The notes: generated by a model not told the origin, from the letters alone. A stretch of DNA of 64,000 bases from Prochlorococcus sp. AG-409-P03 (GCA_003215295.1 QCKN01000006.1:9159-73158), one strand, 5' to 3'; numbered from the stretch's first letter, positions 2,459 through 23,181 are shown. Translations and numbers: made by a program.

Positions 2459-2467
2459 GACTTACTC

Positions 2468-5741: not shown

Positions 5742-5779
5742 ATATAGTATTTAGAGTATTATCACTCTAAATACTATAT
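5742..5779 (-). terminator. AT-rich 16-bp perfect hairpin immediately downstream of the GT2 gene stop
   Basis: Arm atatagtatttagagt (5742-5757) pairs with actctaaatactatat (5764-5779) around a 6-nt loop. It starts 2 nt after the stop codon at 5781-5783. There is no clear U-tract. Confidence 0.4.
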
Positions 5780-5780
5780 A

Positions 5781-6842
5781 TTAAAAACCTTTTGACTGTA
5801 TTTTGTCTGATGAACACCTGGATAGAAATCTTCTTCGTATAGACCTAGATCTAATTAGAGCGACAATAAATGCAGTAAGCTTTGAACCATCAAGGACAAC
5901 GCATACAATGGCAATAGCTATCCATTGCAATGGTAAAAGTCGTGAAAGTTTAGTCCCTCTGTTCAGAGGCATAAGAAGGCCTCTTATCAAACCATAGGAT
6001 AAGATTAGTGCTGTTAGCGTAAGCTTTGTTATATTTGCAAAGTAAGGAAAACTAGATTCTTCCCAATTGGTCATTAGATCATTCCAATTAAAGGCAAAGA
6101 ATATTACTAATAGGTTGCTTACTAAGAAATATATTAGCTTCTGAGATTCAAGGTGGAAAACCACTGGGGAGCAGCTCCGATAGTTTCTAAACCACTTTTT
6201 GGATAACTCATAAATGTTGCTAGGAATTGAACGATAGATCAGTATTGGGGTATGTAAAACTCTATCAAAGTATCCAAATTGCTCTGCTCTTAGAAGCCAA
6301 TCTGTATCTTCTGCGGCTCTTATATCAGGCAGGAATAATCCTATATCTTCTAGGACTGAAACGTGTAAGATTGTACCAGGTAAGGTTGTGATAGCTTTTT
6401 CTCCAAAGGTTGATCTTATAAATAATCTTTTAATACTGTTATCACCTACATAACGAGTGAGGCCAAAGGCTATCTTTGCATTTTCCTGTTCAATGAGTGC
6501 ATAAGAATCAGTCAACCAATCTCCTTCAGGTATCGTATTGAGATCTAAAAATGCTAGCCAGGGTTGTGTGGCTTCCTTGATTCCACTGTTTCTTGCAGAC
6601 CCAGGAAATTGCTTCTTCTCTTGTGGAATAATCTTAACGATGTTTTTAAAGGCAATATCAAAACTATTTAATAAATTTGATATTGATTGCTGATTGTCAA
6701 ATATTTTGAGGCCAGCATCAATTATCAATATTTCACAGGGCAAAGAAGTACCTCTCGCTAGCGCAAGTAAAATTGGTGATAAAGCCTCAGAAGAAAGAGC
6801 ACATGGTATAACAACTGATATAGGTAGGACTTTGGGTGGCAT
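5781..6842 (-). CDS. Family 2 glycosyltransferase with a C-terminal membrane domain
   Basis: The N-terminus ISVVIPC...ILIIDAG...PGSARNSG...LAFLDLN resembles a GT-A fold with a DxD-like motif. There are several C-terminal TM helices. ATG at 6842 is preferred over the TTG at 6851. Confidence 0.8.
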   Translation of the reverse strand: MPPKVLPISVVIPCALSSEALSPILLALARGTSLPCEILIIDAGLKIFDNQQSISNLLNSFDIAFKNIVKIIPQEKKQFPGSARNSGIKEATQPWLAFLDLNTIPEGDWLTDSYALIEQENAKIAFGLTRYVGDNSIKRLFIRSTFGEKAITTLPGTILHVSVLEDIGLFLPDIRAAEDTDWLLRAEQFGYFDRVLHTPILIYRSIPSNIYELSKKWFRNYRSCSPVVFHLESQKLIYFLVSNLLVIFFAFNWNDLMTNWEESSFPYFANITKLTLTALILSYGLIRGLLMPLNRGTKLSRLLPLQWIAIAIVCVVLDGSKLTAFIVALIRSRSIRRRFLSRCSSDKIQSKGF

Positions 6843-7028
6843 ATGCTTCAAAATTCACGCTTGGCAAGCCGTGACTCAACAGTAATTTTAATTATAGCTA
6901 CGTATACTAGTCAATTAGTATTCATTCCGAATAACAATATTGTAATCCATTAGATTTCCTGCCTGCTTAAGGCATAATGACTCGTAAGAGACTAATCCTT
7001 AAGTAATTAATTTAATCTTCCTTGGCAT

Positions 7029-9017
7029 ATGTGTGGCTTTGCTGGAATCTATAGCTCAGAACAAGCATCTGAACTCCAACTAAGTCAATTGGCTTCAATG
7101 ATGGCATCAGAGTTGCAGCATAGAGGCCCTGATGATGATGGTTGTTGGTCAGATGATGTTTTTGCTGTTGCTCATAGGCGGCTTTCAGTTATTGATAGAA
7201 GCTCTTCGGGCTCTCAGCCTATGAAATCTCAATGCGGAAGATATGTAATTGCCTTTAATGGTGAGATATATAACCACAGAAATATGCGAAATGAAATTTT
7301 ATCATCGCAACCTTCACTATTATTGAAAGGACATTCTGATACTGAGACTCTCTTAGAAAATATATCTACTTTTGGATTATTACATACACTGGAAAATATT
7401 AATGGAATGTTTTCCTTTGCCTTATGGGATAGAAAAGATAGGAGCCTTTACCTTGCTAGAGATCGCCTAGGTGAGAAACCACTATATTGGGGGTGGTCAA
7501 ATCAATCACTAATATTTGGTTCAGAATTAAAGGCATTGAGAAAACATCCAGGCTTTTGCACTGAGATTTCTGAAATTGGACTGTTAGATTATTTAAGGTA
7601 TGCATATATTCCTGCTCCTTTAACTATTTTTAAGAACATATATAAGTTAGAACCTGGAACTTTCCTAAAGGCATCTGGTTCAATACCTATCTGTCCGCCG
7701 AATCAACCTATAAGACCAGGTCAATCACATTATTCAGTTTCCATCGAACATTATTGGAAACCAATTGATAGAACTCTCTCTTTAGAAATATCCGAGCCTC
7801 AAAGTGAGCAGTTCTATGTAGGTGAACTTCATTCTCGATTGAGATCAGCCGTATCTCGACAAATGTATGCAGATGTTCCAATTGGAGCTTTCCTATCTGG
7901 TGGCATTGATAGTTCATTAATTACAGCAATAATGTCAGAATACAGCTCACAAAAAGTTAATACGTTTACGATTGGTTTTCAAGACTGTGGATTCGATGAG
8001 GCTCCATATGCAAGGGAAATATCAAAAGTGTTAGATACTAATCATTTAGAATATTATTTATCTAATAGTGATGTTTTAGATCTTATACCACGACTTCCTA
8101 AGATTTACGATGAACCTTTTGCTGATAGTTCACAGATTCCCACTTGCTTGATCTCTGGCCTTGCTCGCTCTAAGGTGACTGTTGTTCTTTCTGGTGATGG
8201 AGCCGACGAAATTTTTGGAGGGTACCCTAGATATTTATTTGGAGAACAACAGTTTGCGCATTTGAGAAGAATTCCATTTGGATTACGTAAAAATATATTT
8301 TCGCCAGTATTAAGCTTTCTAGATGAGGAAACGATTAAGCAGCTATTTCTTAGAGGTTCATTGCTTTTTAGACAGAATAATATCTTAAATCCTTATTATA
8401 AAATAATCCGACTTTTGGAGAAGTTATCAAGTGTAAATAGCATTCTTGATATGAACTCTCACATGTCCAGTATTTGGACGCGGCCAGAATTAATTTTGAA
8501 AAGGGCTATTTCTGACCAAGGGGCTAGTCCAGAGACTTTGATCCAGATGACTGGAATTAGCTCTATAGACATGATGAATCATGATCTTTTAAAGTATTTG
8601 CCAGATGATTTGATTTGCAAAGTTGATCGTGCATCTATGAATTTTGGGTTAGAAGCTAGAATGCCATATTTAGATAATGAAATTGTTGAATTTGCTTTAG
8701 CATTACCATGCTCTATAAGAGGAACCAAATCTCAAACAAAATGGATACTCAAAAGGATTTTAGAAAGATATATCCCGAGCAAATTAATAGATAGGCCTAA
8801 GTCTGGATTTAGTATTCCACTAGCATCACTATTAAGAGATCCACTTAAGCCCTGGTGTGAAGAATTACTTTCTGAGTATGAATTAAGCAAGTCTGGCTAT
8901 TTTAAAACCGATATTATCCGAAGAACTTGGCGTGAACATTTGTCTGGACAGTATGACTGGAGTGGCCGATTGTGGAATATTCTTATGTTTCAAGCTTGGT
9001 ATCGGACACTTAGTTAG
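7029..9017 (+). CDS. asnB: Asparagine synthase (glutamine-hydrolysing)-type amidotransferase, AT-rich copy
   Basis: N-terminal MCGFAGIY supplies the Ntn catalytic Cys2, and SGGIDSS is the PP-loop. The ORF is full length at 662 aa. Confidence 0.9.
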   Translation: MCGFAGIYSSEQASELQLSQLASMMASELQHRGPDDDGCWSDDVFAVAHRRLSVIDRSSSGSQPMKSQCGRYVIAFNGEIYNHRNMRNEILSSQPSLLLKGHSDTETLLENISTFGLLHTLENINGMFSFALWDRKDRSLYLARDRLGEKPLYWGWSNQSLIFGSELKALRKHPGFCTEISEIGLLDYLRYAYIPAPLTIFKNIYKLEPGTFLKASGSIPICPPNQPIRPGQSHYSVSIEHYWKPIDRTLSLEISEPQSEQFYVGELHSRLRSAVSRQMYADVPIGAFLSGGIDSSLITAIMSEYSSQKVNTFTIGFQDCGFDEAPYAREISKVLDTNHLEYYLSNSDVLDLIPRLPKIYDEPFADSSQIPTCLISGLARSKVTVVLSGDGADEIFGGYPRYLFGEQQFAHLRRIPFGLRKNIFSPVLSFLDEETIKQLFLRGSLLFRQNNILNPYYKIIRLLEKLSSVNSILDMNSHMSSIWTRPELILKRAISDQGASPETLIQMTGISSIDMMNHDLLKYLPDDLICKVDRASMNFGLEARMPYLDNEIVEFALALPCSIRGTKSQTKWILKRILERYIPSKLIDRPKSGFSIPLASLLRDPLKPWCEELLSEYELSKSGYFKTDIIRRTWREHLSGQYDWSGRLWNILMFQAWYRTLS

Positions 9018-9106
9018 ATGTTTCGTATGATTCGCTTAATTGTATGGAGAAATAAGCCTCAGGCTTCAACTTCTTTTGCCCCTGGATACTGGAGCTGTAA
9101 TCAAAA

Positions 9107-10267
9107 ATGAGAATTTGTCTACTTACATATGATCAAACTATTCCAGGTGGAGTTAATAGAAGACTATTATCTTTATACAAATTACTATCAATGCATCATT
9201 CTGTGGAGATACTTTCTATTGTGGAATTACGTAAGAATATGAATGAGAAAACTCATTGTAAGCCAAACCTTTTCCTTGTATTACTCCGAATTCTTAGACT
9301 TCAACTCAATATTGGAACTGTATTGACTAGATATGATTTGGTAATAGCATTTTCACTTCTGCCTGGAATAATATCCTTATGGCCATCACGCAAACATATA
9401 TTTGTTGCCACAGGCTCAGCTTTCTATTCAAGAGACTCTCCAAGAGTATCAAGAATACTATGGACATTCTTTCTTCAACCTTTAATCTATATTTTTACTA
9501 GCGCTATAGTGCCAGCTTCACCTCATTTGGTACCCCCTATATTCAAATTGACATGGCTTAGAAACAAGATTCATTATATCAACGGTCTGATAGATCTAGA
9601 GAAACTAGAAAATCAACTATTGGCTGACCTCCCCTTCTCTTCTGATATTCTACTAAAACCATATATTTGTCTATCATCATCACTGACTAAACATAAAGGA
9701 GTCCTTCAGTTTTTAGATGTTTACTCAGAGTATCGTCATCTGAAAGATGGAAATAAATTAAATTTGGTAATTGTTGGTGATGGACCAGCTTATTTAGAAT
9801 GCTTTCAAAGGTGTAGGAGTTTGGGTTTAACTTGCTCGGATCTAAACCATTCAAAAGCCCATAAATCAAATGTCATGTTTGTTGGGCATCATCAAAATCC
9901 ACTACCTTTTATTCTTAATAGCTCCGTATTTGCCATGCCTTCATTTTACGAAGGCCTTTCGAATCAACTTCTTGAGGCAATCTATTGTTCTGTTCCTATA
10001 TTAGTATCAAATTGTCCCGGAAATGTAATAGTCATCAATAGCATCAGAGAGGTGGACAATACCAATTTTTCCACAACCCAATGTACGCTTTTGCCTGTTC
10101 TCAATAATCCTATCGACAAAAAGATATGGGTTAAGACTTTAGTTAATCTGGATCAGAGAAAAGACGAAAAACTAATTCCATCTTTACGAAACAATCTTTT
10201 GGTATCTCAGTTTAGTCTTTCTCAAAATTCAGCGAAATGGCTAAAACTTGTTGGCTCTTTTGGATAG
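9107..10267 (+). CDS. Group 1 glycosyltransferase
   Basis: PSFYEGLSNQLLEAIYCSVPILVSNCPG is the GT-B C-terminal motif. Confidence 0.75.
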   Translation: MRICLLTYDQTIPGGVNRRLLSLYKLLSMHHSVEILSIVELRKNMNEKTHCKPNLFLVLLRILRLQLNIGTVLTRYDLVIAFSLLPGIISLWPSRKHIFVATGSAFYSRDSPRVSRILWTFFLQPLIYIFTSAIVPASPHLVPPIFKLTWLRNKIHYINGLIDLEKLENQLLADLPFSSDILLKPYICLSSSLTKHKGVLQFLDVYSEYRHLKDGNKLNLVIVGDGPAYLECFQRCRSLGLTCSDLNHSKAHKSNVMFVGHHQNPLPFILNSSVFAMPSFYEGLSNQLLEAIYCSVPILVSNCPGNVIVINSIREVDNTNFSTTQCTLLPVLNNPIDKKIWVKTLVNLDQRKDEKLIPSLRNNLLVSQFSLSQNSAKWLKLVGSFG

Positions 10268-10298
10268 ATATTATTAGTACTAATTCTGATCTCCAAAG

Positions 10299-11345
10299 TT
10301 AAGTCCAAAGTAGGTTGTCGTATGGTATCCACATCACTGAATGCGTAGCAAAGTTGAGCCAGACAAATTGGACTGTGAATGCAAATATAATGACCAAGGC
10401 ATTCAGAACTTTTGGTCTTGCTTTAAATAGTTTGAAATCTGGAAATCTTGAGGCTACTAATAACTGTATTGGTATGGCGTATAGTGCAAGCCTGTCAATA
10501 ACCGTGCTGCTGCTTAAAAAGATTAGACCTAGCACACAAGCTAATGAGTAGAAAGACATCCATTTCCAGAGAATTTTCTCAGATTTTGCAAGAACCAATC
10601 TGTCACTATAGATTAAAAATAATATTGAAGGTATAACATTAAGTGCTACACGAACCAGTGCTCCATCTGATTGCATCCCCTCTTCAATATAAACAGACAC
10701 AAAGGTACTTACTCTAGAAAGCAGAAATATACGAGCCATGCCATAACCAGCTATCCCAAGCAGTATTGCTTTTAAAATTTTGTTTTCCAATTTCCCAGAG
10801 GTTAAATATGGGAAGGCTAGGGGCAAGACAATTAAACTTGTTTGTTGAAAGGCAGCGGCAAGACAAGTCCATCCCAGGAACCAAATCACTTTATTGTTGA
10901 CTAACGCGCTATATCCGAACATCAATAGACCTATTGCCGTGGCTTGTCTGGTGTAGCCCATCCCTACAACTATGACTAAATATGGTATTGCCATGGTCAT
11001 TGCAAGCCAAGGCCTGGCAGTGCTTTTACAGAACCAGACCAAACCAGAGCTAAATATTGCAGCACATACAAAATTGACTCCATATACTCCCATCTTCAAG
11101 TTGAGAGACATCCAGTTTAGAATTTCAAAAAGAGGCTCTCTAGCAAGACTAATTTCTCCACTTTCTTTCAGTCGCTCTATGTATTTCATATAACCAAACC
11201 AATCTCCGCCAACTTCATGCCGAAGTCCAATAATTATTACCAAGACTGTGCATATGCTGCAGGCTGTGATGAACCCCCATTTATGGCTTGCTTTAGCTAA
11301 ACCTCGCCATGCAGTTATGGCAAATAACAGCCAATAAATGACCAA
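10299..11345 (-). CDS. EpsG-family polytopic membrane protein (putative Wzy-type glycan polymerase)
   Basis: About 10 predicted TM segments, with the N-proximal motif GLRHEVGGDWFGY resembling the EpsG signature. It sits inside a glycan cluster. The start codon is TTG. Confidence 0.6.
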   Translation of the reverse strand: MVIYWLLFAITAWRGLAKASHKWGFITACSICTVLVIIIGLRHEVGGDWFGYMKYIERLKESGEISLAREPLFEILNWMSLNLKMGVYGVNFVCAAIFSSGLVWFCKSTARPWLAMTMAIPYLVIVVGMGYTRQATAIGLLMFGYSALVNNKVIWFLGWTCLAAAFQQTSLIVLPLAFPYLTSGKLENKILKAILLGIAGYGMARIFLLSRVSTFVSVYIEEGMQSDGALVRVALNVIPSILFLIYSDRLVLAKSEKILWKWMSFYSLACVLGLIFLSSSTVIDRLALYAIPIQLLVASRFPDFKLFKARPKVLNALVIIFAFTVQFVWLNFATHSVMWIPYDNLLWT

Positions 11346-11397
11346 GGCTAAACTCCTCCCACACTCTTTATTGGCTTTAGAAGTATATAGAGTATCT

Positions 11398-12120
11398 TCA
11401 AGAGGTAAGATCAGTTAGCTTGTTCAGTGAGATTAATTCACTTTCTGAGGCAATGGGCAGTGCTTCAACTGTATATCCTTGCATAACTAAATGCTTAATT
11501 ATATACAAGAAACCATGCTCTGCAGTGAGTCTTCCATACTTACCCTCTAGGTTTTCATTCAACAGATTCATTACTATAGAACGTTTAAATAAAAATACAC
11601 CTATATCTCTCTCTCCTTTTTTTGGGGTTAATTCATGTTCCCTAGTCTCTATTAGATCTATCACTTTACCATTCTTGTCTCTTTTAACCATAGTATAGGC
11701 TTGCTCGACATGTCTAGATATAAATGTGAATGTGTTTTTATTATGAAAATGTACTTGAACTAGCCGCGATAAAGTTGAACTTTGAACAAATGGTATATCT
11801 CCCCACATTAGTAGTATATTTTCAGATTCAAGACATATCGGCGAAGCATTAGCACTTAGCACTGCATTGCCCATTCCTAATGCTTTTTCCTGAATGACTA
11901 TATTCGCATCAAGATTATTTTTTCGCAAACACTCTACTATTTGTACCTTTCCTTTTGGGCTGACAATAACAGTTGGAAAATTATCATACAGCACCACACT
12001 TTTCATGATTCTTATGAGGATAGGTATACCATGAACCTCATGTAATGTCTTCGGGTATGGAAGCTTTGCTCTACTTCCTTTGCCAGCTGCTGCAATGACT
12101 GCGCTGATATTTTTAACCAT
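11398..12120 (-). CDS. Nucleotidyltransferase (GlmU N-domain / MobA-like NTP-transferase fold)
   Basis: AAGKGSRAKLPYPK is the G-x-G-S/T-R nucleotide-binding loop, followed by GMGNAV and LLMWGDIPF. It overlaps the upstream GT2 gene by 8 nt. Confidence 0.75.
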   Translation of the reverse strand: MVKNISAVIAAAGKGSRAKLPYPKTLHEVHGIPILIRIMKSVVLYDNFPTVIVSPKGKVQIVECLRKNNLDANIVIQEKALGMGNAVLSANASPICLESENILLMWGDIPFVQSSTLSRLVQVHFHNKNTFTFISRHVEQAYTMVKRDKNGKVIDLIETREHELTPKKGERDIGVFLFKRSIVMNLLNENLEGKYGRLTAEHGFLYIIKHLVMQGYTVEALPIASESELISLNKLTDLTS

Positions 12121-13027
12121 TAAAGTCTTTCCCTAATTGACCCTTTAGGCCTTTTATGATTGCACTGTAGAATATCTGCTTATACCTTCCGAACAGTAGA
12201 GAAAAGACCATATGCAAGCTATTTCTCTTCGCTGTTCTAATTGAAATAACTATGATGGTCAGGATGTTCCTAATACATATAATGTCGAAATATTTTTTGT
12301 TGATTATCAACGAATTCTTTATTAAATAATATATTTTTGGAACAGTGTAACTTCGTTTGCTGACATTGGGATGATAATGGTATGCACTAAGTAGAGAGAC
12401 TACTTCTCCATAACATCGAAGCCTAAAGAAATAATCCACCTCATCACCATAGATGAAATAATCCTCGTTAATATTACCTATGTGATGTACTGCTTTTATT
12501 GATATTAGTGCTCCATTGAAAAGATGCACAAAAGGATACTTGTCAGCATTTGTGAATTTCCTAAGCGCATTAATGGTTTTGATTTTCCTTGGAAAAGTGA
12601 AGATTGCAGGCAAGCCATTTTTATTTAAGACTGGGAAGGGGAAAACGAATGTCGAAGGCCTATCCTCTTCTACAACAACAGAGGAAATACAAGCGGTATT
12701 TGCCCTCAATTCATTAGCGAGCAATAGATGTGATTGTTGGTCTGGATACCCATCATCATCCATTAACCAAGCGGCATCAAAGTCATTTGCCATTGCATAA
12801 CTTAGCCCTCTTTGCCAACCACCTGCTGAACCAACATTTTCCTGATCAATACAAAAAACATCCATCTCTTTTAACATCTCACTTGTTCCATCAATACTCC
12901 CATTATTGATAACAACAATTTTTTCCACTGGCATTGTTTGCTCTTTCAAATAACCTATACATCTCCTTAAAAGCTCACGCCTATTGTGTGTTACAACAAT
13001 GGCCACTGTTTTGATGGGGGCTTTCAT
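12113..13027 (-). CDS. Family 2 glycosyltransferase (rhamnosyl/galactofuranosyl-transferase-like)
   Basis: VAIVVTHNRRELLRRCIGYLKEQT, NNGSIDGT, NVGSAGG and the LMDDDGYP (DxD) motifs. It overlaps the upstream HAD gene by 4 nt. Confidence 0.8.
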   Translation of the reverse strand: MKAPIKTVAIVVTHNRRELLRRCIGYLKEQTMPVEKIVVINNGSIDGTSEMLKEMDVFCIDQENVGSAGGWQRGLSYAMANDFDAAWLMDDDGYPDQQSHLLLANELRANTACISSVVVEEDRPSTFVFPFPVLNKNGLPAIFTFPRKIKTINALRKFTNADKYPFVHLFNGALISIKAVHHIGNINEDYFIYGDEVDYFFRLRCYGEVVSLLSAYHYHPNVSKRSYTVPKIYYLIKNSLIINKKYFDIICIRNILTIIVISIRTAKRNSLHMVFSLLFGRYKQIFYSAIIKGLKGQLGKDFNG

Positions 13028-13737
13028 GTTATTTCCAATTCTTGATTGATTAGTGTAAATGGGAGTTGATTTATATTGATAAAAGGAATTTTCGCATTTT
13101 TCGCGGCTTCGATTCCTGTAATTGAGTCTTCGAAAATTACTGACTGAGACCTAGTAAAACCTGCCAAACTGACTGCCTTGAGAAAAATTTCTGGTTCAGG
13201 TTTAGCTGCTTTAACATCTTCTGAACATAAGGCAAATTTAAAGAAATTACTTAATCCTAGCTTTTCTATTGCTAGTTTAACAGTTTCCCTAGAACCTGAG
13301 CTTGCAATAACGCTCTCAAATTTTGGTTGTGACCATCGAAGAAATTCTTTGGCTCCTGGCATGGGCAAAAAGTCCTTGTCATTTGAGATAAGCTCCCTAA
13401 CCATTTTTTGCTTTAGGAGAACTAGTTCATTTAGGTGGAAATCTGTTAGGCGATGATTTGCTTCTTCGAGGCAATACTTTAATGCCTGATAAGTATTTTG
13501 GCCTGCTATTTTACTATAGTCAACTCTAATTGAGAACTCATTAAGAACCATCTGGAAGGCCATCTTATGATGTCCTGATGTGTTAGCAATTGTCCCATCA
13601 AAATCAAAAATTAAAAGAGATTTGCTTGAAATGAATTCCTTGAGACTATCGACTTGATTCACAGTATGGAGGCTTAAATCTCGAGCCTGACTACTTTTAT
13701 TAATGTACTCTATCCTATTGATTACGCATAAGTTCAA
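13024..13737 (-). CDS. HAD-superfamily hydrolase/phosphatase (beta-phosphoglucomutase-like subfamily)
   Basis: LIFDFDGTIANT is HAD motif I, SSGSR is motif II-like and FEDSITGIEAAKNA is motif III/IV. The true start is uncertain; the track uses a TTG. Confidence 0.7.
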   Translation of the reverse strand: MNLCVINRIEYINKSSQARDLSLHTVNQVDSLKEFISSKSLLIFDFDGTIANTSGHHKMAFQMVLNEFSIRVDYSKIAGQNTYQALKYCLEEANHRLTDFHLNELVLLKQKMVRELISNDKDFLPMPGAKEFLRWSQPKFESVIASSGSRETVKLAIEKLGLSNFFKFALCSEDVKAAKPEPEIFLKAVSLAGFTRSQSVIFEDSITGIEAAKNAKIPFININQLPFTLINQELEIT

Positions 13738-13841
13738 ATCACATCTAGCACACTATAATATTTAACAAATCATTGCTGGTTAGGGCATTTTTGATTTTTG
13801 ATGTGAATATAAGCCTGTGAAATCTATCTTGCTCAATGATT

Positions 13842-15059
13842 TCATAGGCTTGATTTCAGCTCAAAAAGCTCTATTATTTTTCCTATAACTTTCTCGCCGT
13901 CATGTTTCCCTGGTGAAATCGCCGATTCAAAGTTGTCAATAATGCGCGTGATTTCTAGATCCTGGAATCCCTTTTCATCGTATTCAACGTAAGTCTCGTC
14001 GGCTTTGAGCTTACTTTGATTAATAAGAATTACACTAAACAAATCTTCCATATCATATTTCCTTTCACCGGATAACTCCATATAACGATGTGCTCCATAA
14101 ATATAGTCTGAAGCTTTATACATAGGGGTTTCATAATCAGCACCTATATTGGTAATGAAAACTTTTAATGCACTTTTGTTCCTTGCAATTGTCTCAGCCA
14201 ATCCAGTTGTCAAGTAGCTCGGATAAAGTGACGAATGCTGTGTTCCAGCTGAATAGATAATTATATTAGCTTGTTGTAAGGCAAGCTTAACTGAGGGTGA
14301 GATAGTGACATAGCAATGATGCCTATTTAAATAATAACGCTTTTCATTTGTAGTTAGCTTTTCAAAAGACTGGCGATTCAATTCTCTGTCTAAAAGGTAG
14401 ATCCTCTCAATTCGAACATTTGACCTTAGCTCTACAATTTCTGCTTCACTATATAGCATCTCTCCGTTCTCTCTTAGGGCGACTAAGTGCTTATTTTCGT
14501 TGCTTGTAGAAATTACTGTTCCTCTTAGCCTGAATAATCTTTCAATAAATAAATTAGCCTGCTCTATATTTCTCCCGAAGCGAAGAAATGCTCCAGCATA
14601 TATACAATTCATGATTGCACAGTCTGAGAAGTTGAATTTCTTCTCTTTTAGCTTCTCAATTGTTCTAAGACATTGTAGGAACTCACTTAACAGTGTCCTC
14701 AGGTTACTTGTAATGTGGTCAGATGTGAATGCTGAACCTGCTATGTAGTCACTGTCTCCACTCGCAAATTTGCTTATTTCTTCCAAAGCCTCATCTCTTA
14801 AGCAATTTATTGAAAATCTATGTTTAAAAAGTTTTAGATTGCTTGCAAAATCGGGATCATTAGTAGGGAGCATTAGCTCTTGAACTTTACGGATGTCAGA
14901 GGGGCCTAGCATCTCAAAAAATCTGCGAATTTCCCCCGTCGACTTTCCATCGTCGTATGCATTTACGACAGAAGTAACCTGGAATCCAGGCTGATTTAAT
15001 AGAGGAGGGATTAGCGCCCCTGCCCCTCTACCGCCATTTAATACGACTACGTTTAGCAT
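13842..15059 (-). CDS. CofD/YvcK (UPF0052) family protein, putative phospho-group transferase
   Basis: N-terminal VVVLNGGRGAG followed by VVNAYDDGKSTGEIRR matches the GGG-x-G and DDGGSSG-x-LR signatures of the 2-phospho-L-lactate transferase / YvcK family. Confidence 0.65.
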   Translation of the reverse strand: MLNVVVLNGGRGAGALIPPLLNQPGFQVTSVVNAYDDGKSTGEIRRFFEMLGPSDIRKVQELMLPTNDPDFASNLKLFKHRFSINCLRDEALEEISKFASGDSDYIAGSAFTSDHITSNLRTLLSEFLQCLRTIEKLKEKKFNFSDCAIMNCIYAGAFLRFGRNIEQANLFIERLFRLRGTVISTSNENKHLVALRENGEMLYSEAEIVELRSNVRIERIYLLDRELNRQSFEKLTTNEKRYYLNRHHCYVTISPSVKLALQQANIIIYSAGTQHSSLYPSYLTTGLAETIARNKSALKVFITNIGADYETPMYKASDYIYGAHRYMELSGERKYDMEDLFSVILINQSKLKADETYVEYDEKGFQDLEITRIIDNFESAISPGKHDGEKVIGKIIELFELKSSL

Positions 15060-15328
15060 TTCTAAAGCTCTAAATAACTCGCAATGATCTAGTAGAGGTC
15101 AGAATAGAGGTTTTCATCATTTCTTTATAGTACCTATTTTTACGAGAATCTAGGCATTGTGCTGACCACTATATCTACTGTCGCATAACGAAACCACTTG
15201 CTTACTTTCCCATAAAAGTAAAACTACTTAGATTTGATTGATCGAATTTTTTGTTCTACTTGTTCTTATAAATAAATTCGAATATCAGTATAGTTATGTT
15301 CATATCTAGCTTTCTATAATAAAGAAAC

Positions 15329-16597
15329 TTAGAATCTTTCTCTATTTTCTTTCAACTGTTTATACACTTTTGCATATAAACAGTTTGCAATCTCTAGTCC
15401 AAGCACTTTTCTCGAGGCTTCCCTTAGTCTATCTCCACCTAGCTCTTGCAAATTATCAAAATTAGATATTGCTTCTGATAAAGAATCTTTGCTTAAATCT
15501 TTTATGGTTAAACCAGCATTGAGTGTGCTTATCAGCTCTTCAACATCTCCTACGCCTTTATTGCATAAAACGGGAACTCCTGAAGCGAATGCCTCAGCGA
15601 TTTTTGTCGGAGACATAGATATCTTAGAGTATGAGGGCATGGTAAAGGCGACTAAAATATCCATTCCAACAATTAAGTTTGGAACCTGGTTTCTAGTAGC
15701 AGAATAAATATGAATAAATTGATGAATTTCTTTAGGGCAAAATTTATTTAATAGGGTGTTGAACTTTTCTCTGTCTTGTGTAACAACCAGTGCAGAGATT
15801 GCTTTTCGTGTTGTGCTGGCTAGCTTGAAAAGCTCTAAAAATGCTTCTGGCTTATACATAGAGCCTACTGAACCTAAGTAGCCAATAACGAAGGAATGAG
15901 CTGGAATTCCTAGTTTTTTTTTGATTTCCGACTTTTCTGCTTCACTCGCAATTCTAAAATGTTCATAATCTGCACAACAAGGTATTACGGTTACCTTGGC
16001 TTCTGTTTTCGCCCCCATTCTTATTACCTCGGGTAGAACAGATTTTGTTAGGACAACTAGTTGGTCGCATGATTCTAGTATCTTCTTTTCCTGTCTTTTA
16101 AAGTGATCGTATTGTAAACGATGTATCCAATTATTTATATTCCAGCTCCCTTTGTCAACTCGCTCGTCTACCCAAAGACCTCTGAAGTCAAAGATAAGCT
16201 TTGTGTTAAATAATGCCTTTAATAGCATCCCCACTTCTGCGGGTGCATGTGCTCTTGCATGGATGACATCAATTGATTTAAGTTTTACTAACCAAGTTGC
16301 CATTAAATACATTTTAACTAAGTCATATACCTTTCCGAACAATGACAATCCAGATGTAAACTGAAGAGGTATCCAGTTTATACCTTTTTTCATTAAGTGT
16401 GATTTAACTTTTGCTGATTGAGCTTTGTACCTATACCTCTTTTCAAAACTGAGAATATGGACTCTTTTTTCTTTTTCAGAGATTCCATATATATAGGGCA
16501 GTATTTGGCTTTCCCCAAGCGGGTCAAGAATCCCATCATATGTAATAAAAAGAATATTCAGCTCTTCCTTTTTATTAGAGAACAACTTTTGTTTCAT
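15329..16597 (-). CDS. Group 1 glycosyltransferase
   Basis: GT-B architecture. The start is reassigned to the ATG at 16597 (MKQKLFSNKKEELNILFITYDG...), which forms an ATGA overlap with the stop of the upstream asnB-like gene. Confidence 0.8.
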   Translation of the reverse strand: MKQKLFSNKKEELNILFITYDGILDPLGESQILPYIYGISEKEKRVHILSFEKRYRYKAQSAKVKSHLMKKGINWIPLQFTSGLSLFGKVYDLVKMYLMATWLVKLKSIDVIHARAHAPAEVGMLLKALFNTKLIFDFRGLWVDERVDKGSWNINNWIHRLQYDHFKRQEKKILESCDQLVVLTKSVLPEVIRMGAKTEAKVTVIPCCADYEHFRIASEAEKSEIKKKLGIPAHSFVIGYLGSVGSMYKPEAFLELFKLASTTRKAISALVVTQDREKFNTLLNKFCPKEIHQFIHIYSATRNQVPNLIVGMDILVAFTMPSYSKISMSPTKIAEAFASGVPVLCNKGVGDVEELISTLNAGLTIKDLSKDSLSEAISNFDNLQELGGDRLREASRKVLGLEIANCLYAKVYKQLKENRERF

Positions 16598-18618
16598 CCC
16601 CACTCCTTTAGCCATGCTTGCCACATCAAAATGATCCATAGCTTATGGGTATGGTCAAACCGGCCAGTGAGATGTTGTTCCCAAAGCTGTTGAATTGGCT
16701 GAGACTTCAGATAACCTTGGTTTTCTATAACTATTGGGTTTAGTAACTCTTCTGCCCATTCACGTAAGGAACCTCTTAGCCATTGACCGATAGGGATTCC
16801 AAATCCTGCTTTTGGCCTATCGATTAATTCTGAAGGCACATATTTGTAGAGAATTTGTCTTAAGGCCCATTTCCCAATTGCCTGAGTTTGCTTAGCACTC
16901 TTATTTCGTATCTTCATGGTCATTGGTAATTGCCATGCCATTTCTGCGACTCTGTGGTCTAGGAAGGGTGCCCTTGTTTCCAGACTTGCAGCCATTGCTG
17001 CACGGTCTAGTTTAGTGAGAATGTCATTGGGCAAATAATTCAAGGTGTCATAGGCCATCATTCTTTCTGCAGGATCTTCAGATATCAAACTTGGTAGTGG
17101 TAGGTTTACAGCACTTGGTGGTTCGAAGATCGGATAGCTGCTTTCTTCGCATTGCATTATTGAAAGAGGTTGCTTCCATTCACTAATTAATGAAAGATAG
17201 AGTTCATCAGAAGTCCGGACTCTTTGAAGTCGCTCAGCAAGTTTGTGGGCTTTATGTCCTACTTGGGGGATACCCAGTGCTTTTACTGCTCGATCCCATT
17301 TGCTAGGGGGGATATTTCTAATTGTGCAACCTAGTAAGTATCTCAGATGGAAAGGCATCCAATTGACACGGCTCCATATCTTTGGGCCCCAAAAATATCT
17401 GTTATAGCCGCCAAATAATTCATCGCCTCCGTCTCCACTTAGAACAACCTTTAGTCCGTTTTTGCGTGCCTCTCTACAAACTAGATGGGTAGGTATCTGA
17501 GATGAGTCCGCGAAAGGCTCAGAGTAGATTTTTGCTAAAGATGGGATGATTTCCATAGCCTCTGACGCGGTCAAGATTGTCTCGCAATGGTCGGTACCTA
17601 AGTGCTTTGCAACAGAACGCGCAAAGGGTGCTTCATTGAAATCTTCTTCTTCAAAGCCAATAGTGAAAGACCGGATGGGTTGTTGGTTGTTTTTTTGAAG
17701 GAGGGCAGTTATTAATGAAGAGTCAATACCTCCTGAAAGGAAAGTCCCTAGGGACACGTCAGCTAAACTTTGCTTCTCTATTGATATTTGGAGCGTCTTT
17801 TCTAGAGCATTTAGGGCTTCTGTTTCATTAAAAAAGTGAATATTAGATTGTCCTTGGTGCTGGTAATAACGTTGGCGTGATGCAGTTTCTGCAGAGGTTC
17901 TAAAGCACCACCATTGTTGTGAAGTAACAGGCTCTTCTAAATCACTTTCTCTAATTGTGAGTAAATGACCTGGTAAGAGTTGATTCATACCTTGATAAAT
18001 GCAGCATGGAGCTGATATGGCAGAAAACCGTAAAAGTTGAGAAAGTGCCTCTCGGTTGATTCGATTACTGAAGCCAGGGAAGCTCCTAATTGCTGCTAGT
18101 TCAGAAGCAAAAAGGAAAGTTTTTTGTGAACCTTCTCCTGTAAAACCGTAGTAAAGAGGTTTCTCTCCAAATCGATCTCTTGCGAGCTGAAGAACATGCT
18201 CTTTTCGATCCCAAATTGCTATTGAAAACATCCCTACAGTTCGTTCTAAAGTTTCTTCAATTCCCCAAGTTTCTATCGCTGTGATAAGAGTTTCGGTGTC
18301 ACTAGAACCTATCCATTGAGTTCCATTTCGTTGACTGTTGAGCTCTCTACGTAACTCAAGGTGGTTGTATATTTCACCATTGAAAACAATCACGTGCCTT
18401 CCAGAGTGACTAATCATGGGCTGGTGGCCAGCTCTAGAAAGATCTAAAATTGATAGGCGCTGGTGCGCTAACGCGATAACCTCATTTGCTTGCCACCACA
18501 CGCCAGAGTCGTCTGGCCCTCTATGGGCTATTGCAGCAGCCATCTTGCTTGCAACCTTTCCCAAAGAAGACCTGTTTGGGAAGTTTGGATTGGTCAAAAT
18601 GCCTGCAAAGCCACACAT
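16594..18618 (-). CDS. asnB: Asparagine synthase (glutamine-hydrolysing)-type amidotransferase, higher-GC copy
   Basis: MCGFAGIL supplies the catalytic Cys2 and SGGIDSS is the PP-loop. The protein is 674 aa. Confidence 0.9.
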   Translation of the reverse strand: MCGFAGILTNPNFPNRSSLGKVASKMAAAIAHRGPDDSGVWWQANEVIALAHQRLSILDLSRAGHQPMISHSGRHVIVFNGEIYNHLELRRELNSQRNGTQWIGSSDTETLITAIETWGIEETLERTVGMFSIAIWDRKEHVLQLARDRFGEKPLYYGFTGEGSQKTFLFASELAAIRSFPGFSNRINREALSQLLRFSAISAPCCIYQGMNQLLPGHLLTIRESDLEEPVTSQQWWCFRTSAETASRQRYYQHQGQSNIHFFNETEALNALEKTLQISIEKQSLADVSLGTFLSGGIDSSLITALLQKNNQQPIRSFTIGFEEEDFNEAPFARSVAKHLGTDHCETILTASEAMEIIPSLAKIYSEPFADSSQIPTHLVCREARKNGLKVVLSGDGGDELFGGYNRYFWGPKIWSRVNWMPFHLRYLLGCTIRNIPPSKWDRAVKALGIPQVGHKAHKLAERLQRVRTSDELYLSLISEWKQPLSIMQCEESSYPIFEPPSAVNLPLPSLISEDPAERMMAYDTLNYLPNDILTKLDRAAMAASLETRAPFLDHRVAEMAWQLPMTMKIRNKSAKQTQAIGKWALRQILYKYVPSELIDRPKAGFGIPIGQWLRGSLREWAEELLNPIVIENQGYLKSQPIQQLWEQHLTGRFDHTHKLWIILMWQAWLKEWG

Positions 18619-20524: not shown

Positions 20525-21898
20525 TCAAAGGCGGAGTGCTTTCAGTTCTCGCTGCATTATGCCTTTGAGATCTAATAAGACTCCTTTTGGAATAAGAAGA
20601 CTCTGCCATTCTGTGGGACTTAGATCAGCAAATTGTCTATGTGCTACTGCGCCAATCACTGCTGAATAGCAATTCCCATTCGGGATTTCATTTAGTACTT
20701 CCAGTCCATATTCTTTGAATGCTTCGGAAACATCTATCCAGGGATCTACAACAGTTGCCTCCATTCCATAGTGTTTCAGGGCAGTAATTAAATCCACTAC
20801 ACGGGTATTGCGTAGATCAGGACAGTTTTCTTTGAAGGCAAGTCCGAGCACTAATACTTTTGCGCCCCCTACTAAAAGCCTTCGTTGTGCCATCTTTAGT
20901 ACTAATTGCTCAACAACCCAACCACTCATCCCATCATTGATGCGTCTACCGGCCAGAACTACTTGAGGGTGGTAGCCGGCTTGCTCAGCTTTGTGGGTTA
21001 GGTAATAAGGATCCACCCCTATACAGTGACCGCCCACGAGACCAGGACGAAAAGGTAGAAAATTCCATTTTGTTCCGGCTGCTTCTAGCACATCTAACGT
21101 GTCAATCCCAAGTCGGCTAAAGATGATTGACAGCTCATTTACCAAGGCAATATTGAGATCTCTCTGAGTATTTTCAATTACTTTTGCTGCTTCTGCGACT
21201 TTAAGGCTCGCGGCCATATGTGTACCTGCTGACACTATGGATCCATAAAAGTCGTCGATCCATTGAGCCGCTTCAGGCGTACTTCCACTAGTTACTTTTG
21301 TAATATTGCTCAACTTGTGTTCCACATCTCCTGGATTGATTCGTTCGGGGCTATATCCACAAACAAAACCAGCTCCTTTTTCGAGATTATTGAACTTAAG
21401 TCCTGACTCCCTTTCGATAATGGGAATACATACTTCTTCGGTAGCGCCTGGATACACAGTACTTTCGTAAATCACCACTGAAGTCGTTGCTGAAGCTTCT
21501 TTTTTTTGTCTAGAAGCTCGTTTCTTTAAAGCCTTGGCGACCGTAGTTGTGGCATTTTCCAGAGGGGTTAAATAAGGCCTTTTGGCTTTGTCAATTGGTG
21601 TTGGTACAGATATTACAAACACATCTGCTTCAGCAAGAATCTCGATATCGCTAGTGAATTCTAGGAGTGTGGCTGCTTTTAATTCTTCTTTACTTATTTC
21701 TTGGGTTCTTTCAATCCCTTGTTGCAGCTCGTTGAGTCTTTGTTGGTTAATGTCAAAGCCAATTACCTTTCGGCTCATCTGGTCATGTGTTCGTTTAGAA
21801 GCTTGTGGCTTTCCAAATTCAACGGCTAATGGGAGTCCGACATATCCGAGTCCAATGACGGCAACAGTACAAGTATTTAGATCTGGGAAACTTGTCAC
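20525..21898 (-). CDS. Nucleotide-sugar 6-dehydrogenase (UDP-glucose/GDP-mannose dehydrogenase family; UDP-HexNAc dehydrogenase-like)
   Basis: VIGLGYVGLPLAVEFG is the Rossmann motif and GGHCIGVDPYY carries the catalytic Cys. The start codon is GTG. Confidence 0.9.
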   Translation of the reverse strand: MTSFPDLNTCTVAVIGLGYVGLPLAVEFGKPQASKRTHDQMSRKVIGFDINQQRLNELQQGIERTQEISKEELKAATLLEFTSDIEILAEADVFVISVPTPIDKAKRPYLTPLENATTTVAKALKKRASRQKKEASATTSVVIYESTVYPGATEEVCIPIIERESGLKFNNLEKGAGFVCGYSPERINPGDVEHKLSNITKVTSGSTPEAAQWIDDFYGSIVSAGTHMAASLKVAEAAKVIENTQRDLNIALVNELSIIFSRLGIDTLDVLEAAGTKWNFLPFRPGLVGGHCIGVDPYYLTHKAEQAGYHPQVVLAGRRINDGMSGWVVEQLVLKMAQRRLLVGGAKVLVLGLAFKENCPDLRNTRVVDLITALKHYGMEATVVDPWIDVSEAFKEYGLEVLNEIPNGNCYSAVIGAVAHRQFADLSPTEWQSLLIPKGVLLDLKGIMQRELKALRL

Positions 21899-23047: not shown

Positions 23048-23181
23048 AAGGAGTTCAAATCTTTATTAGTTGTTCCTGTATTAGAGGAATATTCATCCAG
23101 AGTCTTTCAGAGACTTTCGAGGGTATGACTTGTGATTGCAAGAGCTACCCCAAAGCGGTGGTCTCTTGCAATCATTAGAGG

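What the first reader, a model, noticed from the sequence alone, without database searches (positions are those of the whole stretch)
11398..15059. CofD/YvcK-like transferase, GlmU-like NTP-transferase, HAD phosphatase and GT2 module inside a glycan island
Four consecutive minus-strand genes are involved. The last three are translationally coupled, with a 4-nt overlap at 13024-13027 and an 8-nt overlap at 12113-12120.
- A 405-aa protein with the GGxG...DDG-S-G-x-R signatures of the 2-phospho-L-lactate transferase (CofD)/YvcK family.
- A HAD phosphatase.
- A GT2 glycosyltransferase.
- A stand-alone nucleotidyltransferase.

In F420 biosynthesis, a MobA-fold nucleotidyltransferase (CofC) activates a phospho-acid and CofD transfers it to an acceptor hydroxyl. 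Picocyanobacteria are not known to make F420.

The same enzyme logic placed among glycosyltransferases, a Wzy-like polymerase and an exporter suggests an uncharacterised route. That route could attach a phosphodiester-linked substituent, such as a phospho-lactyl, phospho-glyceryl or phospho-sugar group, to a surface glycan. I know of no characterised example of a CofD-family enzyme acting in O-antigen or exopolysaccharide decoration.
Basis: partly seen in the sequence, partly recalled or inferred. Interest (0 to 1): 0.75.

Follow-up and report, generated by a model that had tools for sequence, protein, structure and literature searches.

The report
Orphan YvcK-like enzyme glycan cassette
Four (really five) co-transcribed genes in a picocyanobacterial surface-sugar island form a widely shared, horizontally moving cassette built around an uncharacterised relative of the YvcK/CofD enzymes, whose chemistry is unknown but now cleanly testable.

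Summary
Four minus-strand genes at 11398-15059 encode a CofD-superfamily protein, a HAD hydrolase, a GT2 and a stand-alone nucleotidyltransferase, with the stated 4-nt and 8-nt overlaps.

The grouping is not chance. In 79 named-genome loci from many phyla, HAD (85%), nucleotidyltransferase (85%), GT2 (80%) and an upstream GT4 (68%) accompany the CofD-like gene in fixed order. The same domains are also fused into single polypeptides, up to all four in one protein.

Three cassette types exist. Only the CofD-like protein is never replaced:
- GlmU-like nucleotidyltransferase is swapped for a HIT/GalT-like one.
- HAD-IA is swapped for HAD-IIB.
- The GT is GT2, GT4 or GT1.

The 405-aa protein belongs to the YvcK branch (TM 0.86 to YvcK structures, about 0.6 to CofD/FbiA). 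Its partner is a GlmU-type sugar-1-phosphate nucleotidyltransferase, not a CofC. A nucleotide-sugar is therefore more likely than a phospho-acid.

My leading mechanism (about 0.35) is transfer of sugar-1-phosphate from the NDP-sugar to the sugar installed by the co-encoded GT. The main rival (about 0.3) is a dedicated NDP-sugar supply line. I found no characterised example in the literature library.

The parts
13842..15059 (-). CofD-superfamily, YvcK-branch protein (405 aa): the invariant core of the cassette
   Evidence: PF01933 98.5 bits. Below the YvcK TIGR01826 cut-off (90.5/196) and the GAK TIGR04357 cut-off (102.6/340). AlphaFold model pLDDT 93.8. Foldseek: YvcK structures TMt 0.85-0.87, CofD/FbiA about 0.6. 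35 positions are >=90% conserved over 112 sequences.
13024..13737 (-). HAD-IA hydrolase, beta-phosphoglucomutase-like; the true start is probably the GTG at 13662
   Evidence: HAD_2 107 bits. Beta-PGM 1lvh E 1e-12 with DxD, His20, Lys145 and Glu-Asp conserved, but Arg49 replaced by Thr. Adjacent to the CofD-like gene in 67/79 loci. Start codon inspected.
12113..13027 (-). GT2 glycosyltransferase (WbbL/GlfT1-like), start overlaps the HAD stop (ATGA)
   Evidence: PF00535 59 bits; the closest named model is GlfT1, 107.5 bits, below its cut-off of 330. Present in 63/79 loci at 37-55% identity. Junction shown.
11398..12120 (-). Stand-alone GlmU-N-terminal-like sugar-1-phosphate nucleotidyltransferase, 8-nt overlap with the GT2
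   Evidence: NTP_transf_3 45 bits; GlmU models about 88 bits covering 6-239. S. pneumoniae GlmU 4aaw E 1.4e-16. Catalytic Arg/Lys, Gln and Asp conserved; sugar-contact residues changed. Present in 67/79 loci. Junction shown.
15329..16639 (-). GT4 glycosyltransferase immediately upstream, a fifth frequent member of the cassette
   Evidence: Glycos_transf_1 / Glyco_transf_4. A homologue lies directly upstream of the CofD-like gene in 54/79 loci, usually 3-50 nt away.
10299..11345 (-). EpsG-family (Wzy-like) polymerase, a frequent neighbour
   Evidence: PF14897 156.5 bits. Within 6 kb in 27/79 loci.
16594..18618 (-). AsnB-like glutamine amidotransferase, a frequent neighbour (a second paralogue lies at 7029-9017 on the + strand)
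   Evidence: Asn_synthase plus GATase_6/7. Within 6 kb in 33/79 loci.

Best explanation
The genes GT4 - CofD-like - HAD - GT2 - nucleotidyltransferase form one self-contained, horizontally mobile cassette that makes, activates and installs one special residue of a surface glycan.

Shown:
- The cassette is a conserved unit.
- Its invariant component is a YvcK-branch CofD-superfamily protein with enzyme-like conservation.
- It always travels with a nucleotidyltransferase, a HAD hydrolase and a glycosyltransferase, although each of these three can be swapped for a non-homologous equivalent.

Inferred:
1. The HAD supplies a sugar-1-phosphate (as a mutase or bisphosphate phosphatase), or it pulls the next step.
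2. The GlmU-like enzyme converts the sugar-1-phosphate into a (probably uridine) NDP-sugar.
3. The CofD-like enzyme binds that NDP-sugar, as every studied member of the superfamily binds an NDP-linked ligand.
4. It then performs the one firmly established catalytic reaction of the superfamily. An acceptor hydroxyl attacks the sugar-proximal phosphate and NMP leaves, so sugar-1-phosphate becomes attached by a phosphodiester to the sugar that the co-encoded glycosyltransferase has just installed.

The donor is most likely a nucleotide-sugar, not a phospho-acid.
For: - Module reality: co-occurrence of 80-85% in fixed order across Proteobacteria, Bacteroidota, cyanobacteria and others. Fusions include HAD-NT-CofD-GT2 (P0204), NT-CofD-GT2, CofD-GT2, GT2-CofD and CofD-HAD-NT. 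The CofD::GT2 fusion family is large (2293 hits).
- Three cassette types have non-orthologous replacement of the partners but never of the CofD-like protein.
- Enzyme-like constraint: 35 positions >=90% conserved, mostly Asp/Arg/Lys/Asn/Ser/His, over 112 sequences down to about 30% identity.
- Superfamily chemistry: structures of CofD with GDP and FbiA with GDP are the next-best fold matches after YvcK. YvcK/GlmR binds UDP-GlcNAc and is reported to act on GlcNAc-1-P plus UTP.
- Partner specificity: the nucleotidyltransferase keeps the GlmU catalytic Arg, Lys and Asp and the uracil-reading Gln. The Clostridial substitute is an Apa2/GalT-like enzyme.
- Precedent for fused glycosyltransferase + HAD phosphatase + phosphodiester-forming transferase fed by a nucleotidyltransferase: Hib Bcs1/Bcs3 (PMC10299916).
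- CofD::GT2 fusions fit two transferases acting in turn on one acceptor.
Against: - No biochemical data exist for any member.
- The motifs are YvcK-type, not CofD-type, and YvcK catalysis itself is disputed.
- A glycosyltransferase of some family is always present, and the fused GT2 looks like a polyprenyl-phosphate sugar synthase with GtrA and GT-C genes nearby. This fits equally well, or better, with the trio simply making a special NDP-sugar for that transferase.
- The tightest pairing is CofD-like with HAD (overlapping genes and fusions). That suggests consecutive steps and is not obviously explained by this model.
- The only solved glycan near a CofD-family gene (M. fermentans glucofuranan) carries no phosphate, although the gene there is split and its subfamily was not checked.
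Confidence: 0.35

Rival explanations
1. Dedicated NDP-sugar supply line. The CofD-like enzyme, the HAD and the nucleotidyltransferase together make an unusual nucleotide-sugar, which the co-encoded glycosyltransferase transfers.

There are two possible roles for the CofD-like enzyme. It could phosphorylate a sugar phosphate at the anomeric position, with the HAD trimming the other phosphate as in the HldE/GmhB/HldC heptose route. Or it could remodel the NDP-sugar after the nucleotidyltransferase step.
For: - A glycosyltransferase is always present but its family varies (GT2 of two kinds, GT4, GT1), as expected if it only consumes the trio's product.
- In Clostridia the trio plus a GT1 sits in a polyketide cluster, like a classical sugar-biosynthesis sub-cluster.
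- Type II cassettes look like Gtr/Arn pathways, with a polyprenyl-phosphate sugar synthase, a GtrA flippase and a GT-C.
- CofD-like and HAD are the tightest pair.
- The HAD keeps an anion site at the distal-phosphate position, and the nucleotidyltransferase has an extra Arg in its sugar pocket.
- Methyltransferase and radical-SAM partners suggest modification at the sugar-nucleotide level.
Against: - No member of the CofD superfamily is known to be a kinase, mutase or NDP-sugar-modifying enzyme.
- All known ligands are NDP-linked, which places the enzyme after, not before, the nucleotidyltransferase.
- The most common fusion is CofD::GT2, and those two steps are not consecutive in this scheme.
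Confidence: 0.3
2. GlmR-like regulator or scaffold. The CofD-like protein binds the NDP-sugar and allosterically controls or organises the partner enzymes without catalysing a reaction.
For: B. subtilis GlmR/YvcK is described as a UDP-GlcNAc-binding activator of GlmS (abstracts). [quoted passage not shown] The window protein is structurally closest to YvcK.
Against: - There are about 35 near-invariant, mostly charged or polar positions over very distant sequences, including family-specific ones (R81, D146, E205, D308).
- It is the only component never replaced.
- It is covalently fused to enzymes in thousands of proteins.
- The partner enzymes vary in family, which is difficult for a specific protein-protein regulator.
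Confidence: 0.1
3. One reading: an F420-like route in which a phospho-acid (phospho-lactate, phosphoenolpyruvate or phosphoglycerate) is nucleotide-activated and transferred to the glycan.
For: Membership of the same superfamily as CofD/FbiA. AsnB-like amidotransferases lie nearby in 42% of loci; they could amidate a carboxylate, but this is speculation.
Against: - The nucleotidyltransferase has no CofC signal and is GlmU-like along its whole length.
- The Clostridial replacement is a GalT/Apa2-like enzyme.
- The protein is not detectably related to CofD/FbiA by sequence profile.
- No cofC, cofE or cofG/H genes were found among the neighbours scanned.
Confidence: 0.07
4. Soluble initiating enzyme. 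The CofD-like protein transfers sugar-1-phosphate from the NDP-sugar to polyprenyl phosphate, the same chemistry as WecA or PglC, priming the glycan that the fused GT2 then extends.
For: The reaction type is the same as that of CofD (NMP leaves). Only 9 of 46 fully flanked loci show a classical initiating transferase within 10 kb.
Against: The window itself has a WecA-like gene (2857-4038), and 13 other loci also carry a WecA- or PglC-like gene. The model shows no membrane-anchoring element. Initiating enzymes are often encoded outside glycan clusters, so their absence is weak evidence.
Confidence: 0.05

Closest known systems
YvcK / GlmR / CuvA (UPF0052, TIGR01826)
   Same: Same fold (TMt 0.85-0.87 to 2o2z, 2hzb, 2ppv). 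Shared motifs: GGxG, DDGxSxG, PxDxR, GN, GxxxxSS and the C-terminal His. Expected to bind a UDP-sugar.
   Different: - About 95 residues longer, with a helical insertion at about 85-146.
- Scores below the family cut-off.
- Never next to yvcJ/whiA; instead it is embedded in glycan or polyketide-glycoside clusters and fused to HAD, nucleotidyltransferase and GT2 domains.
CofC/CofD (FbiD/FbiA) of coenzyme F420 biosynthesis
   Same: Same superfamily and Pfam family. Same pairing of a nucleotidyltransferase with a CofD-fold protein. Provides the one firmly established catalytic reaction of the superfamily (phospho-X transfer with NMP leaving).
   Different: Only a distant fold match (TM about 0.6, 11-14% identity) and undetectable by profile. 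The partner is GlmU-like, not CofC. No F420 genes were found among the neighbours scanned.
Hib capsule Bcs1/Bcs3 and related teichoic-acid-like polymerases (PMC10299916)
   Same: Same architecture logic: a nucleotidyltransferase feeds a multi-enzyme protein that combines a glycosyltransferase, a HAD phosphatase and a phosphodiester-forming transferase.
   Different: No homology of the phosphotransferase (TagF-like GT-B in Bcs3, CofD fold here). Bcs3 uses PRPP and CDP-ribitol; the donors here are unknown.
Nucleotide-activated heptose pathway (HldE/HddA kinase, GmhB HAD phosphatase, HldC/HddC nucleotidyltransferase); from my own knowledge
   Same: Same kinase-phosphatase-nucleotidyltransferase logic for making a special NDP-sugar from a sugar phosphate. 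This is the model for the main rival explanation.
   Different: The kinase there has a GHMP or ribokinase fold. No CofD-fold enzyme is known to be a kinase.
Gtr / Arn type polyprenyl-phosphate-sugar decoration systems; from my own knowledge
   Same: Type II cassettes carry an AglJ/PpgS/ArnC-like GT2 (fused to the CofD-like domain), a GtrA-family flippase and a GT-C.
   Different: Those systems have no CofD-fold component. The window's type I cassette has a WbbL/GlfT1-like GT2 instead.

Membership tests
CofD / FbiA 2-phospho-L-lactate (EPPG) transferase | Matches Pfam PF01933 above the gathering score | tested here: met
   98.5 bits against a cut-off of 30, residues 4-372.
CofD / FbiA 2-phospho-L-lactate (EPPG) transferase | Equivalog-level sequence similarity to characterised CofD/FbiA | tested here: not met
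   No NCBIfam CofD/FbiA model at E<=0.01. The family profile does not find 3c3d or 6uw1 even at E<=10. Foldseek TMt 0.53-0.68 at 11-14% identity.
CofD / FbiA 2-phospho-L-lactate (EPPG) transferase | Partner CofC/FbiD guanylyltransferase and other F420 genes nearby | tested here: not met
   The partner hits NTP_transf_3, NTP_transferase and IspD, plus GlmU models; there is no PF01983 hit. The neighbours scanned are glycan genes.
CofD / FbiA 2-phospho-L-lactate (EPPG) transferase | Catalyses phospho-X transfer from an NDP-X with release of NMP | not testable with these tools
   Needs an enzyme assay.
YvcK / GlmR (TIGR01826) | Scores above the NCBIfam subfamily cut-off | tested here: not met
   90.5 bits in three stretches against a cut-off of 196.
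YvcK / GlmR (TIGR01826) | YvcK fold and signature motifs | tested here: met
   TMt 0.85-0.87, E 1e-19. Profile E 1e-33. The DDGxSxG, PSDxRK, GN, GTQHSS and C-terminal His motifs align.
YvcK / GlmR (TIGR01826) | Conserved yvcJ-yvcK-whiA operon / cell-wall context | tested here: not met
   In the window and in 79 plus about 10 further loci the neighbours are GT4, HAD, GT2, a nucleotidyltransferase, EpsG, AsnB, or polyketide synthase genes.
YvcK / GlmR (TIGR01826) | Binds UDP-GlcNAc or UDP-glucose | not testable with these tools
   Needs binding assays. The His of YvcK's C-terminal 'RH' motif is invariant here (H386), but the preceding Arg is Lys, Ser or another residue.
GAK-system CofD-like protein (TIGR04357) | Scores above the model cut-off | tested here: not met
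   102.6 bits against a cut-off of 340.
GlmU (for the 240-aa nucleotidyltransferase) | Uridyltransferase domain with catalytic Arg, Lys, Gln and Asp | tested here: met
   Aligned to 4aaw, 2v0h and 1fwy. The GxGxR...PK, Q...G-x-G and GD-x-P motifs are conserved and family-wide.
GlmU (for the 240-aa nucleotidyltransferase) | C-terminal left-handed beta-helix acetyltransferase domain and GlcNAc-contact residues | tested here: not met
   The protein is only 240 aa and matches GlmU positions of about 2-230. Thr82, Gly140 and Asn169 equivalents are changed, with 'GERD' in place of 'EINT'.
Beta-phosphoglucomutase (for the HAD) | HAD catalytic motifs plus the distal-phosphate site (Arg49, Ser116, Lys117, Asn118), and a score above cut-off | tested here: inconclusive
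   The catalytic motifs, His20, Lys76 and Ser-x-Ser-(Lys to Arg) are conserved, but Arg49 is a conserved Thr. TIGR01990 scores 90 against a cut-off of 189. In other cassettes this HAD is replaced by a Cof-type HAD-IIB.

The most novel reading that the evidence does not exclude
The YvcK-branch enzymes of this cassette are true catalysts and form a new class of glycan-building phosphotransferases. They would transfer sugar-1-phosphate from an NDP-sugar, with a fold unrelated to LicD, TagF-like, Stealth or polyprenyl-phosphate phosphoglycosyl transferases. They are spread by horizontal transfer from picocyanobacteria to Patescibacteria and recruited into a Clostridial polyketide pathway. If true, this would also give the first clean biochemical handle on what the long-enigmatic YvcK/GlmR fold does.
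Probability: 0.3. Interest if true: 0.85.

Novelty: new variant of a known kind. Interest (0 to 1): 0.65.

Why it matters
- **A better handle on YvcK/GlmR.** This protein is important for cell-envelope integrity and virulence in Gram-positive bacteria, but its catalytic function is still disputed. Here a sister subfamily sits in a defined biosynthetic setting, physically fused to its presumptive upstream and downstream enzymes. That makes substrate guessing and in-vitro reconstitution much easier than for YvcK itself.
- **Wide distribution.** About 400 relatives were found among one-genome-per-species representatives, and thousands of fusion proteins exist. Hosts include abundant marine groups (Prochlorococcus, Synechococcus, SAR86, Pelagibacteraceae), wastewater organisms (Accumulibacter, Competibacter) and Patescibacteria.
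- **Ecological relevance.** Whatever residue the cassette installs is a common but unrecognised feature of microbial surfaces. That matters for phage and grazer recognition in picocyanobacterial genomic islands.
- **Misleading annotation.** Public records call these genes 'CofD family' or 'YvcK family'. This wrongly suggests F420 biosynthesis or gluconeogenesis.

Tried and rejected
- **F420 biosynthesis, or action on the Fo chromophore.** Rejected: no CofC, and no F420 genes among the neighbours scanned. The protein is on the YvcK rather than the CofD branch.
- **Housekeeping YvcK.** Rejected because of context, length and sub-threshold score.
- **Chance adjacency.** Rejected by co-occurrence and fusions.
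- **PRPP-type ribofuranosylation (CriT/CrpP logic).** No structural similarity to anything but YvcK, CofD and FbiA. I kept it only as an analogy.
- **Link to M. fermentans glucofuranan (PMC11658790).** Suggestive because the window GT2 is GlfT1-like. It is unusable as evidence, because the CofD gene there is split and its subfamily could not be checked.
- **CDP-2-glycerol pathway literature.** It gave no family information.
- **Plasmid collection.** No hit.
- **Pfam, NCBIfam and PDB sequence searches of the Clostridial 285-aa protein.** Nothing found. Only the fold search resolved it.
- **Context look-ups for P0164, P0188 and P0167.** They returned contigs too short to help. The look-up for P0001 returned no record.
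- **Promoter and terminator scan.** At the level expected from shuffles.

Full report
**1. Observation**

The junctions read from the sequence are ATGA (13024-13027) and ATGGTTAA (12113-12120).

| Gene | Pfam result |
|---|---|
| 405-aa protein | PF01933 CofD, 98.5 bits (cut-off 30) |
| HAD | HAD_2, 107 bits |
| GT2 | Glycos_transf_2, 59 bits |
| Nucleotidyltransferase | NTP_transf_3, 45 bits |

The HAD ORF as listed starts at a TTG. An in-frame GTG at 13662 would give 212 aa, like its homologues.

The genes sit in a glycan island that runs from about 2.8 to 23 kb. It contains a WecA-like PF00953 protein, GT4 and GT2 genes, two AsnB-like amidotransferases, EpsG, an ABC exporter, UDP-glucose dehydrogenase and an epimerase. 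The island lies between a phycobilisome-linker gene and tRNA-Phe, followed by metK, rpsA, nrdR and psbB. The host is therefore a picocyanobacterium.

**2. What the 405-aa protein is**

- It is a member of the CofD superfamily, but it falls below the curated cut-offs for YvcK (90.5/196) and for the GAK CofD-like family (102.6/340). No CofD/FbiA model is hit.
- By sequence, the closest solved structures are YvcK/UPF0052 proteins (E 1e-13 for the single sequence, 1e-33 for the family profile). CofD and FbiA are not found even at E<=10.
- A high-confidence model (pLDDT 93.8, pTM 0.92) superposes on YvcK structures with TMt 0.85-0.87. It superposes on CofD/FbiA with TMt 0.53-0.68.
- Compared with YvcK it has a helical insertion at about residues 85-146 and is about 95 residues longer.
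- Across 112 homologues (62 fusion proteins, identity down to about 30%), 35 positions are at least 90% conserved. Most are Asp, Arg, Lys, Asn, Ser or His. They include the YvcK-type motifs (GGRG, NAYDDGxSTG, GPSDxRK, GN, GTQHSSLxP, TN, C-terminal His) and family-specific R81, D146, E205 and D308. This looks like an active site rather than a scaffold.

**3. The module is real**

Homologues at about 65% identity lie in the same cassette in unrelated flanking contexts. A scan of one genome per species found 401 relatives, and I kept 79 loci. Hosts include:
- Proteobacteria: Accumulibacter, Polaromonas, Methylococcales, Competibacter, SAR86, Sphingomonadaceae, Brevundimonas, Pelagibacteraceae, Geomonas.
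- Other groups: Chitinophagaceae, Clostridia, Acidobacteriota and a Woesearchaeote.
- Only some Prochlorococcus and Synechococcus single-cell genomes.

A rough neighbour-joining tree is incongruent with taxonomy, which indicates horizontal transfer. The window's protein groups with a marine clade of picocyanobacteria plus a SAR86 genome.

Within 6 kb of the CofD-like gene, the 79 loci contain:

| Partner | Loci with a homologue |
|---|---|
| HAD | 85% |
| Nucleotidyltransferase | 85% |
| GT2 | 80% |
| Upstream GT4 | 68% |
| AsnB | 42% |
| EpsG | 34% |

The order is nearly always GT4 - CofD-like - HAD - GT2 - nucleotidyltransferase on one strand. These loci are the best 80 of 401, so they are biased towards close relatives.

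**4. Rosetta-stone fusions**

An exhaustive representative search found 2034 relatives. From about 36% identity downward, most are proteins of 650-1150 aa. The architectures include:
- HAD - nucleotidyltransferase - CofD - GT2 (P0204)
- nucleotidyltransferase - CofD - GT2
- CofD - GT2
- GT2 - CofD
- CofD - HAD(IIB) - nucleotidyltransferase
- CofD - HAD(IIB)

The fused HAD, nucleotidyltransferase and CofD domains are full-length homologues of the window's separate genes, at 33-36% identity. The fused GT2 is of a different subtype, closest to AglJ, PpgS, ArnC and dolichyl-phosphate hexose transferases. A profile of the fused CofD-like domains retrieves 2293 proteins at E<=1e-20. Nearly all of the top 120 are CofD::GT2 fusions, and NCBI names them only 'CofD family' or 'YvcK family' protein.

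**5. Three cassette types**

| Type | Where found | Gene order | Evidence |
|---|---|---|---|
| I | The window and most named loci | GT4 - CofD-like - HAD - (methyltransferase) - GT2 (WbbL/GlfT1-like) - nucleotidyltransferase | |
| II | Bdellovibrionota, Saccharimonadales and others | radical-SAM - SAM methyltransferase - HAD - nucleotidyltransferase - CofD::GT2 - short GT2, genes overlapping | |
| III | Six Clostridial genomes | unknown 285-aa protein - CofD-like - HAD - GT1 (EryCIII-like), inside a trans-AT polyketide synthase cluster | |

- In type II, GtrA-type flippase or GT-C (PMT_2) genes lie nearby. Its HAD, nucleotidyltransferase and methyltransferase are homologous to those of type I.
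- In type III, the 285-aa protein has no hit in the local Pfam, NCBIfam or PDB sequence searches. Its model (pLDDT 91) matches the Ap4A phosphorylase Apa2 (TM 0.72, E 7e-15), then ADP-glucose phosphorylase and GalT. H136, H138 and Q140 are invariant.

Three functions are therefore retained by non-orthologous replacement: the nucleotidyltransferase (GlmU-like or HIT/GalT-like), the HAD (IA or IIB) and the glycosyltransferase (GT2, GT4 or GT1). The CofD-like protein is the only constant.

**6. The partners**

- The nucleotidyltransferase resembles the GlmU uridyltransferase domain along its whole length. It keeps the catalytic Arg and Lys, the uracil-reading Gln and the Mg-binding Asp. It changes the GlcNAc-contact residues: Thr82 becomes Met, and 'EINT' becomes a family-conserved 'GERD'. 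It has no CofC signal.
- The HAD keeps the beta-phosphoglucomutase catalytic residues and a Ser-x-Ser-Arg at the distal-phosphate site, but it has a conserved Thr in place of Arg49. Whether it is a mutase or a phosphatase cannot be decided. Its replacement by a Cof-type HAD-IIB elsewhere points to a generic sugar-phosphate phosphatase or mutase role.

**7. Mechanism**

What is shown: this is a conserved, mobile unit whose invariant core is an enzyme-like YvcK-branch protein. That protein always works with an NDP-X-forming enzyme, a HAD and a glycosyltransferase.

What is inferred: every studied member of the superfamily binds an NDP-linked ligand (CofD and FbiA bind GDP; YvcK/GlmR binds UDP-GlcNAc). 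I therefore place the CofD-like enzyme downstream of the nucleotidyltransferase.

The one firmly established catalytic reaction in the superfamily is phospho-X transfer with NMP leaving. Applied here, the leading model is sugar-1-phosphate transfer from the NDP-sugar onto the sugar installed by the co-encoded glycosyltransferase. That would give a phosphodiester-linked residue (confidence about 0.35). The Hib Bcs1/Bcs3 machine is a precedent for fusing a glycosyltransferase, a HAD phosphatase and a phosphodiester-forming transferase fed by a nucleotidyltransferase.

The main rival (about 0.3) is that the trio makes a special NDP-sugar for the glycosyltransferase. Four things favour it:
- A glycosyltransferase of variable family is always present.
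- Type II cassettes look like Gtr/Arn systems.
- The Clostridial polyketide context looks like a sugar sub-cluster.
- CofD-like and HAD are very tightly paired.

Lesser rivals:
- A GlmR-like regulator (0.1).
- A soluble initiating transferase (0.05).

**8. Comparison with the known, and novelty**

The protein is not a CofD/FbiA and not a canonical YvcK; defining features of both were tested and not met. It is a distinct, large, uncharacterised subfamily of the same fold. Full-text searches found no characterised CofD-family enzyme in polysaccharide or natural-product glycosylation. The only mention is a split CofD-family gene next to a nucleotidyltransferase and the glucofuranan synthase of M. 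fermentans. I rate this a new variant of a known kind, with interest 0.65. The module is well supported and widespread, and it offers a tractable route to the disputed biochemistry of the YvcK fold. Its chemistry remains unproven.

Noticed in passing
L072:8976-16787 (Lachnotalea glycerini); the same operon in L069, L071, L073, L079, L082: In Clostridia the CofD-like/HAD pair (overlapping genes) lies inside a trans-AT polyketide synthase cluster, next to an EryCIII-like GT1, ECH and HMG-CoA synthase. It is preceded by a conserved 285-aa protein that has no hit in the local Pfam/NCBIfam copies (precomputed PF26217). That protein's model matches the Ap4A phosphorylase Apa2 and GalT-type HIT nucleotidyltransferases, with an invariant HxHxQ.
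   Followed up: yes
L090:3903-10758, L091:5580-10743, L092:4109-10723, L007:3100-9766, L004:5698-9144: A second, very conserved cassette type in Bdellovibrionota, Saccharimonadales and other lineages: radical-SAM - SAM methyltransferase - HAD - nucleotidyltransferase - CofD::GT2 fusion - short GT2. GtrA-type flippase or PMT_2 GT-C genes lie nearby, which suggests a polyprenyl-phosphate-sugar decoration pathway.
   Followed up: partly
window 23180-23254 and 1-16000: A tRNA-Phe gene abuts the end of the glycan island. The left part of the island (1-16 kb) has 35-39% G+C, against 41-46% for the flanking core genes. This fits a horizontally acquired, hypervariable island.
   Followed up: partly
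window 7029-9017 (+) and 16594-18618 (-): Two AsnB-like glutamine amidotransferase paralogues bracket the cassette. An AsnB homologue lies within 6 kb in 42% of related loci. Together with the UDP-glucose dehydrogenase at 20525-21898, this suggests uronamide residues in the glycan.
   Followed up: no
window 13662-13737: The HAD ORF as listed starts at a TTG and is about 25-30 aa longer than its homologues. An in-frame GTG at 13662 is the more likely start, leaving about 180 nt between the CofD-like stop and the HAD start.
   Followed up: partly
window 16594-16639: The listed GT4 ORF (ATG at 16639) overlaps the 3' end of the AsnB gene by 46 nt. An internal Met 14 codons downstream may be the real start.
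   Followed up: no
window 42379-47577; 28241-28322: A complete rRNA operon (16S, tRNA-Ile, tRNA-Ala, 23S, 5S), and a cyanobacterial ribosomal-protein-S1 leader upstream of the S1 gene. Both are ordinary, but they confirm a cyanobacterial chromosome.
   Followed up: yes
L001:11858-12748; L014, L015, L061, L062, L066-L068 at the equivalent position: In a subset of type I cassettes, a SAM-dependent methyltransferase homologous to the one in type II cassettes (26-29% identity) is inserted between the CofD-like or HAD gene and the GT2. The window lacks it.
   Followed up: partly
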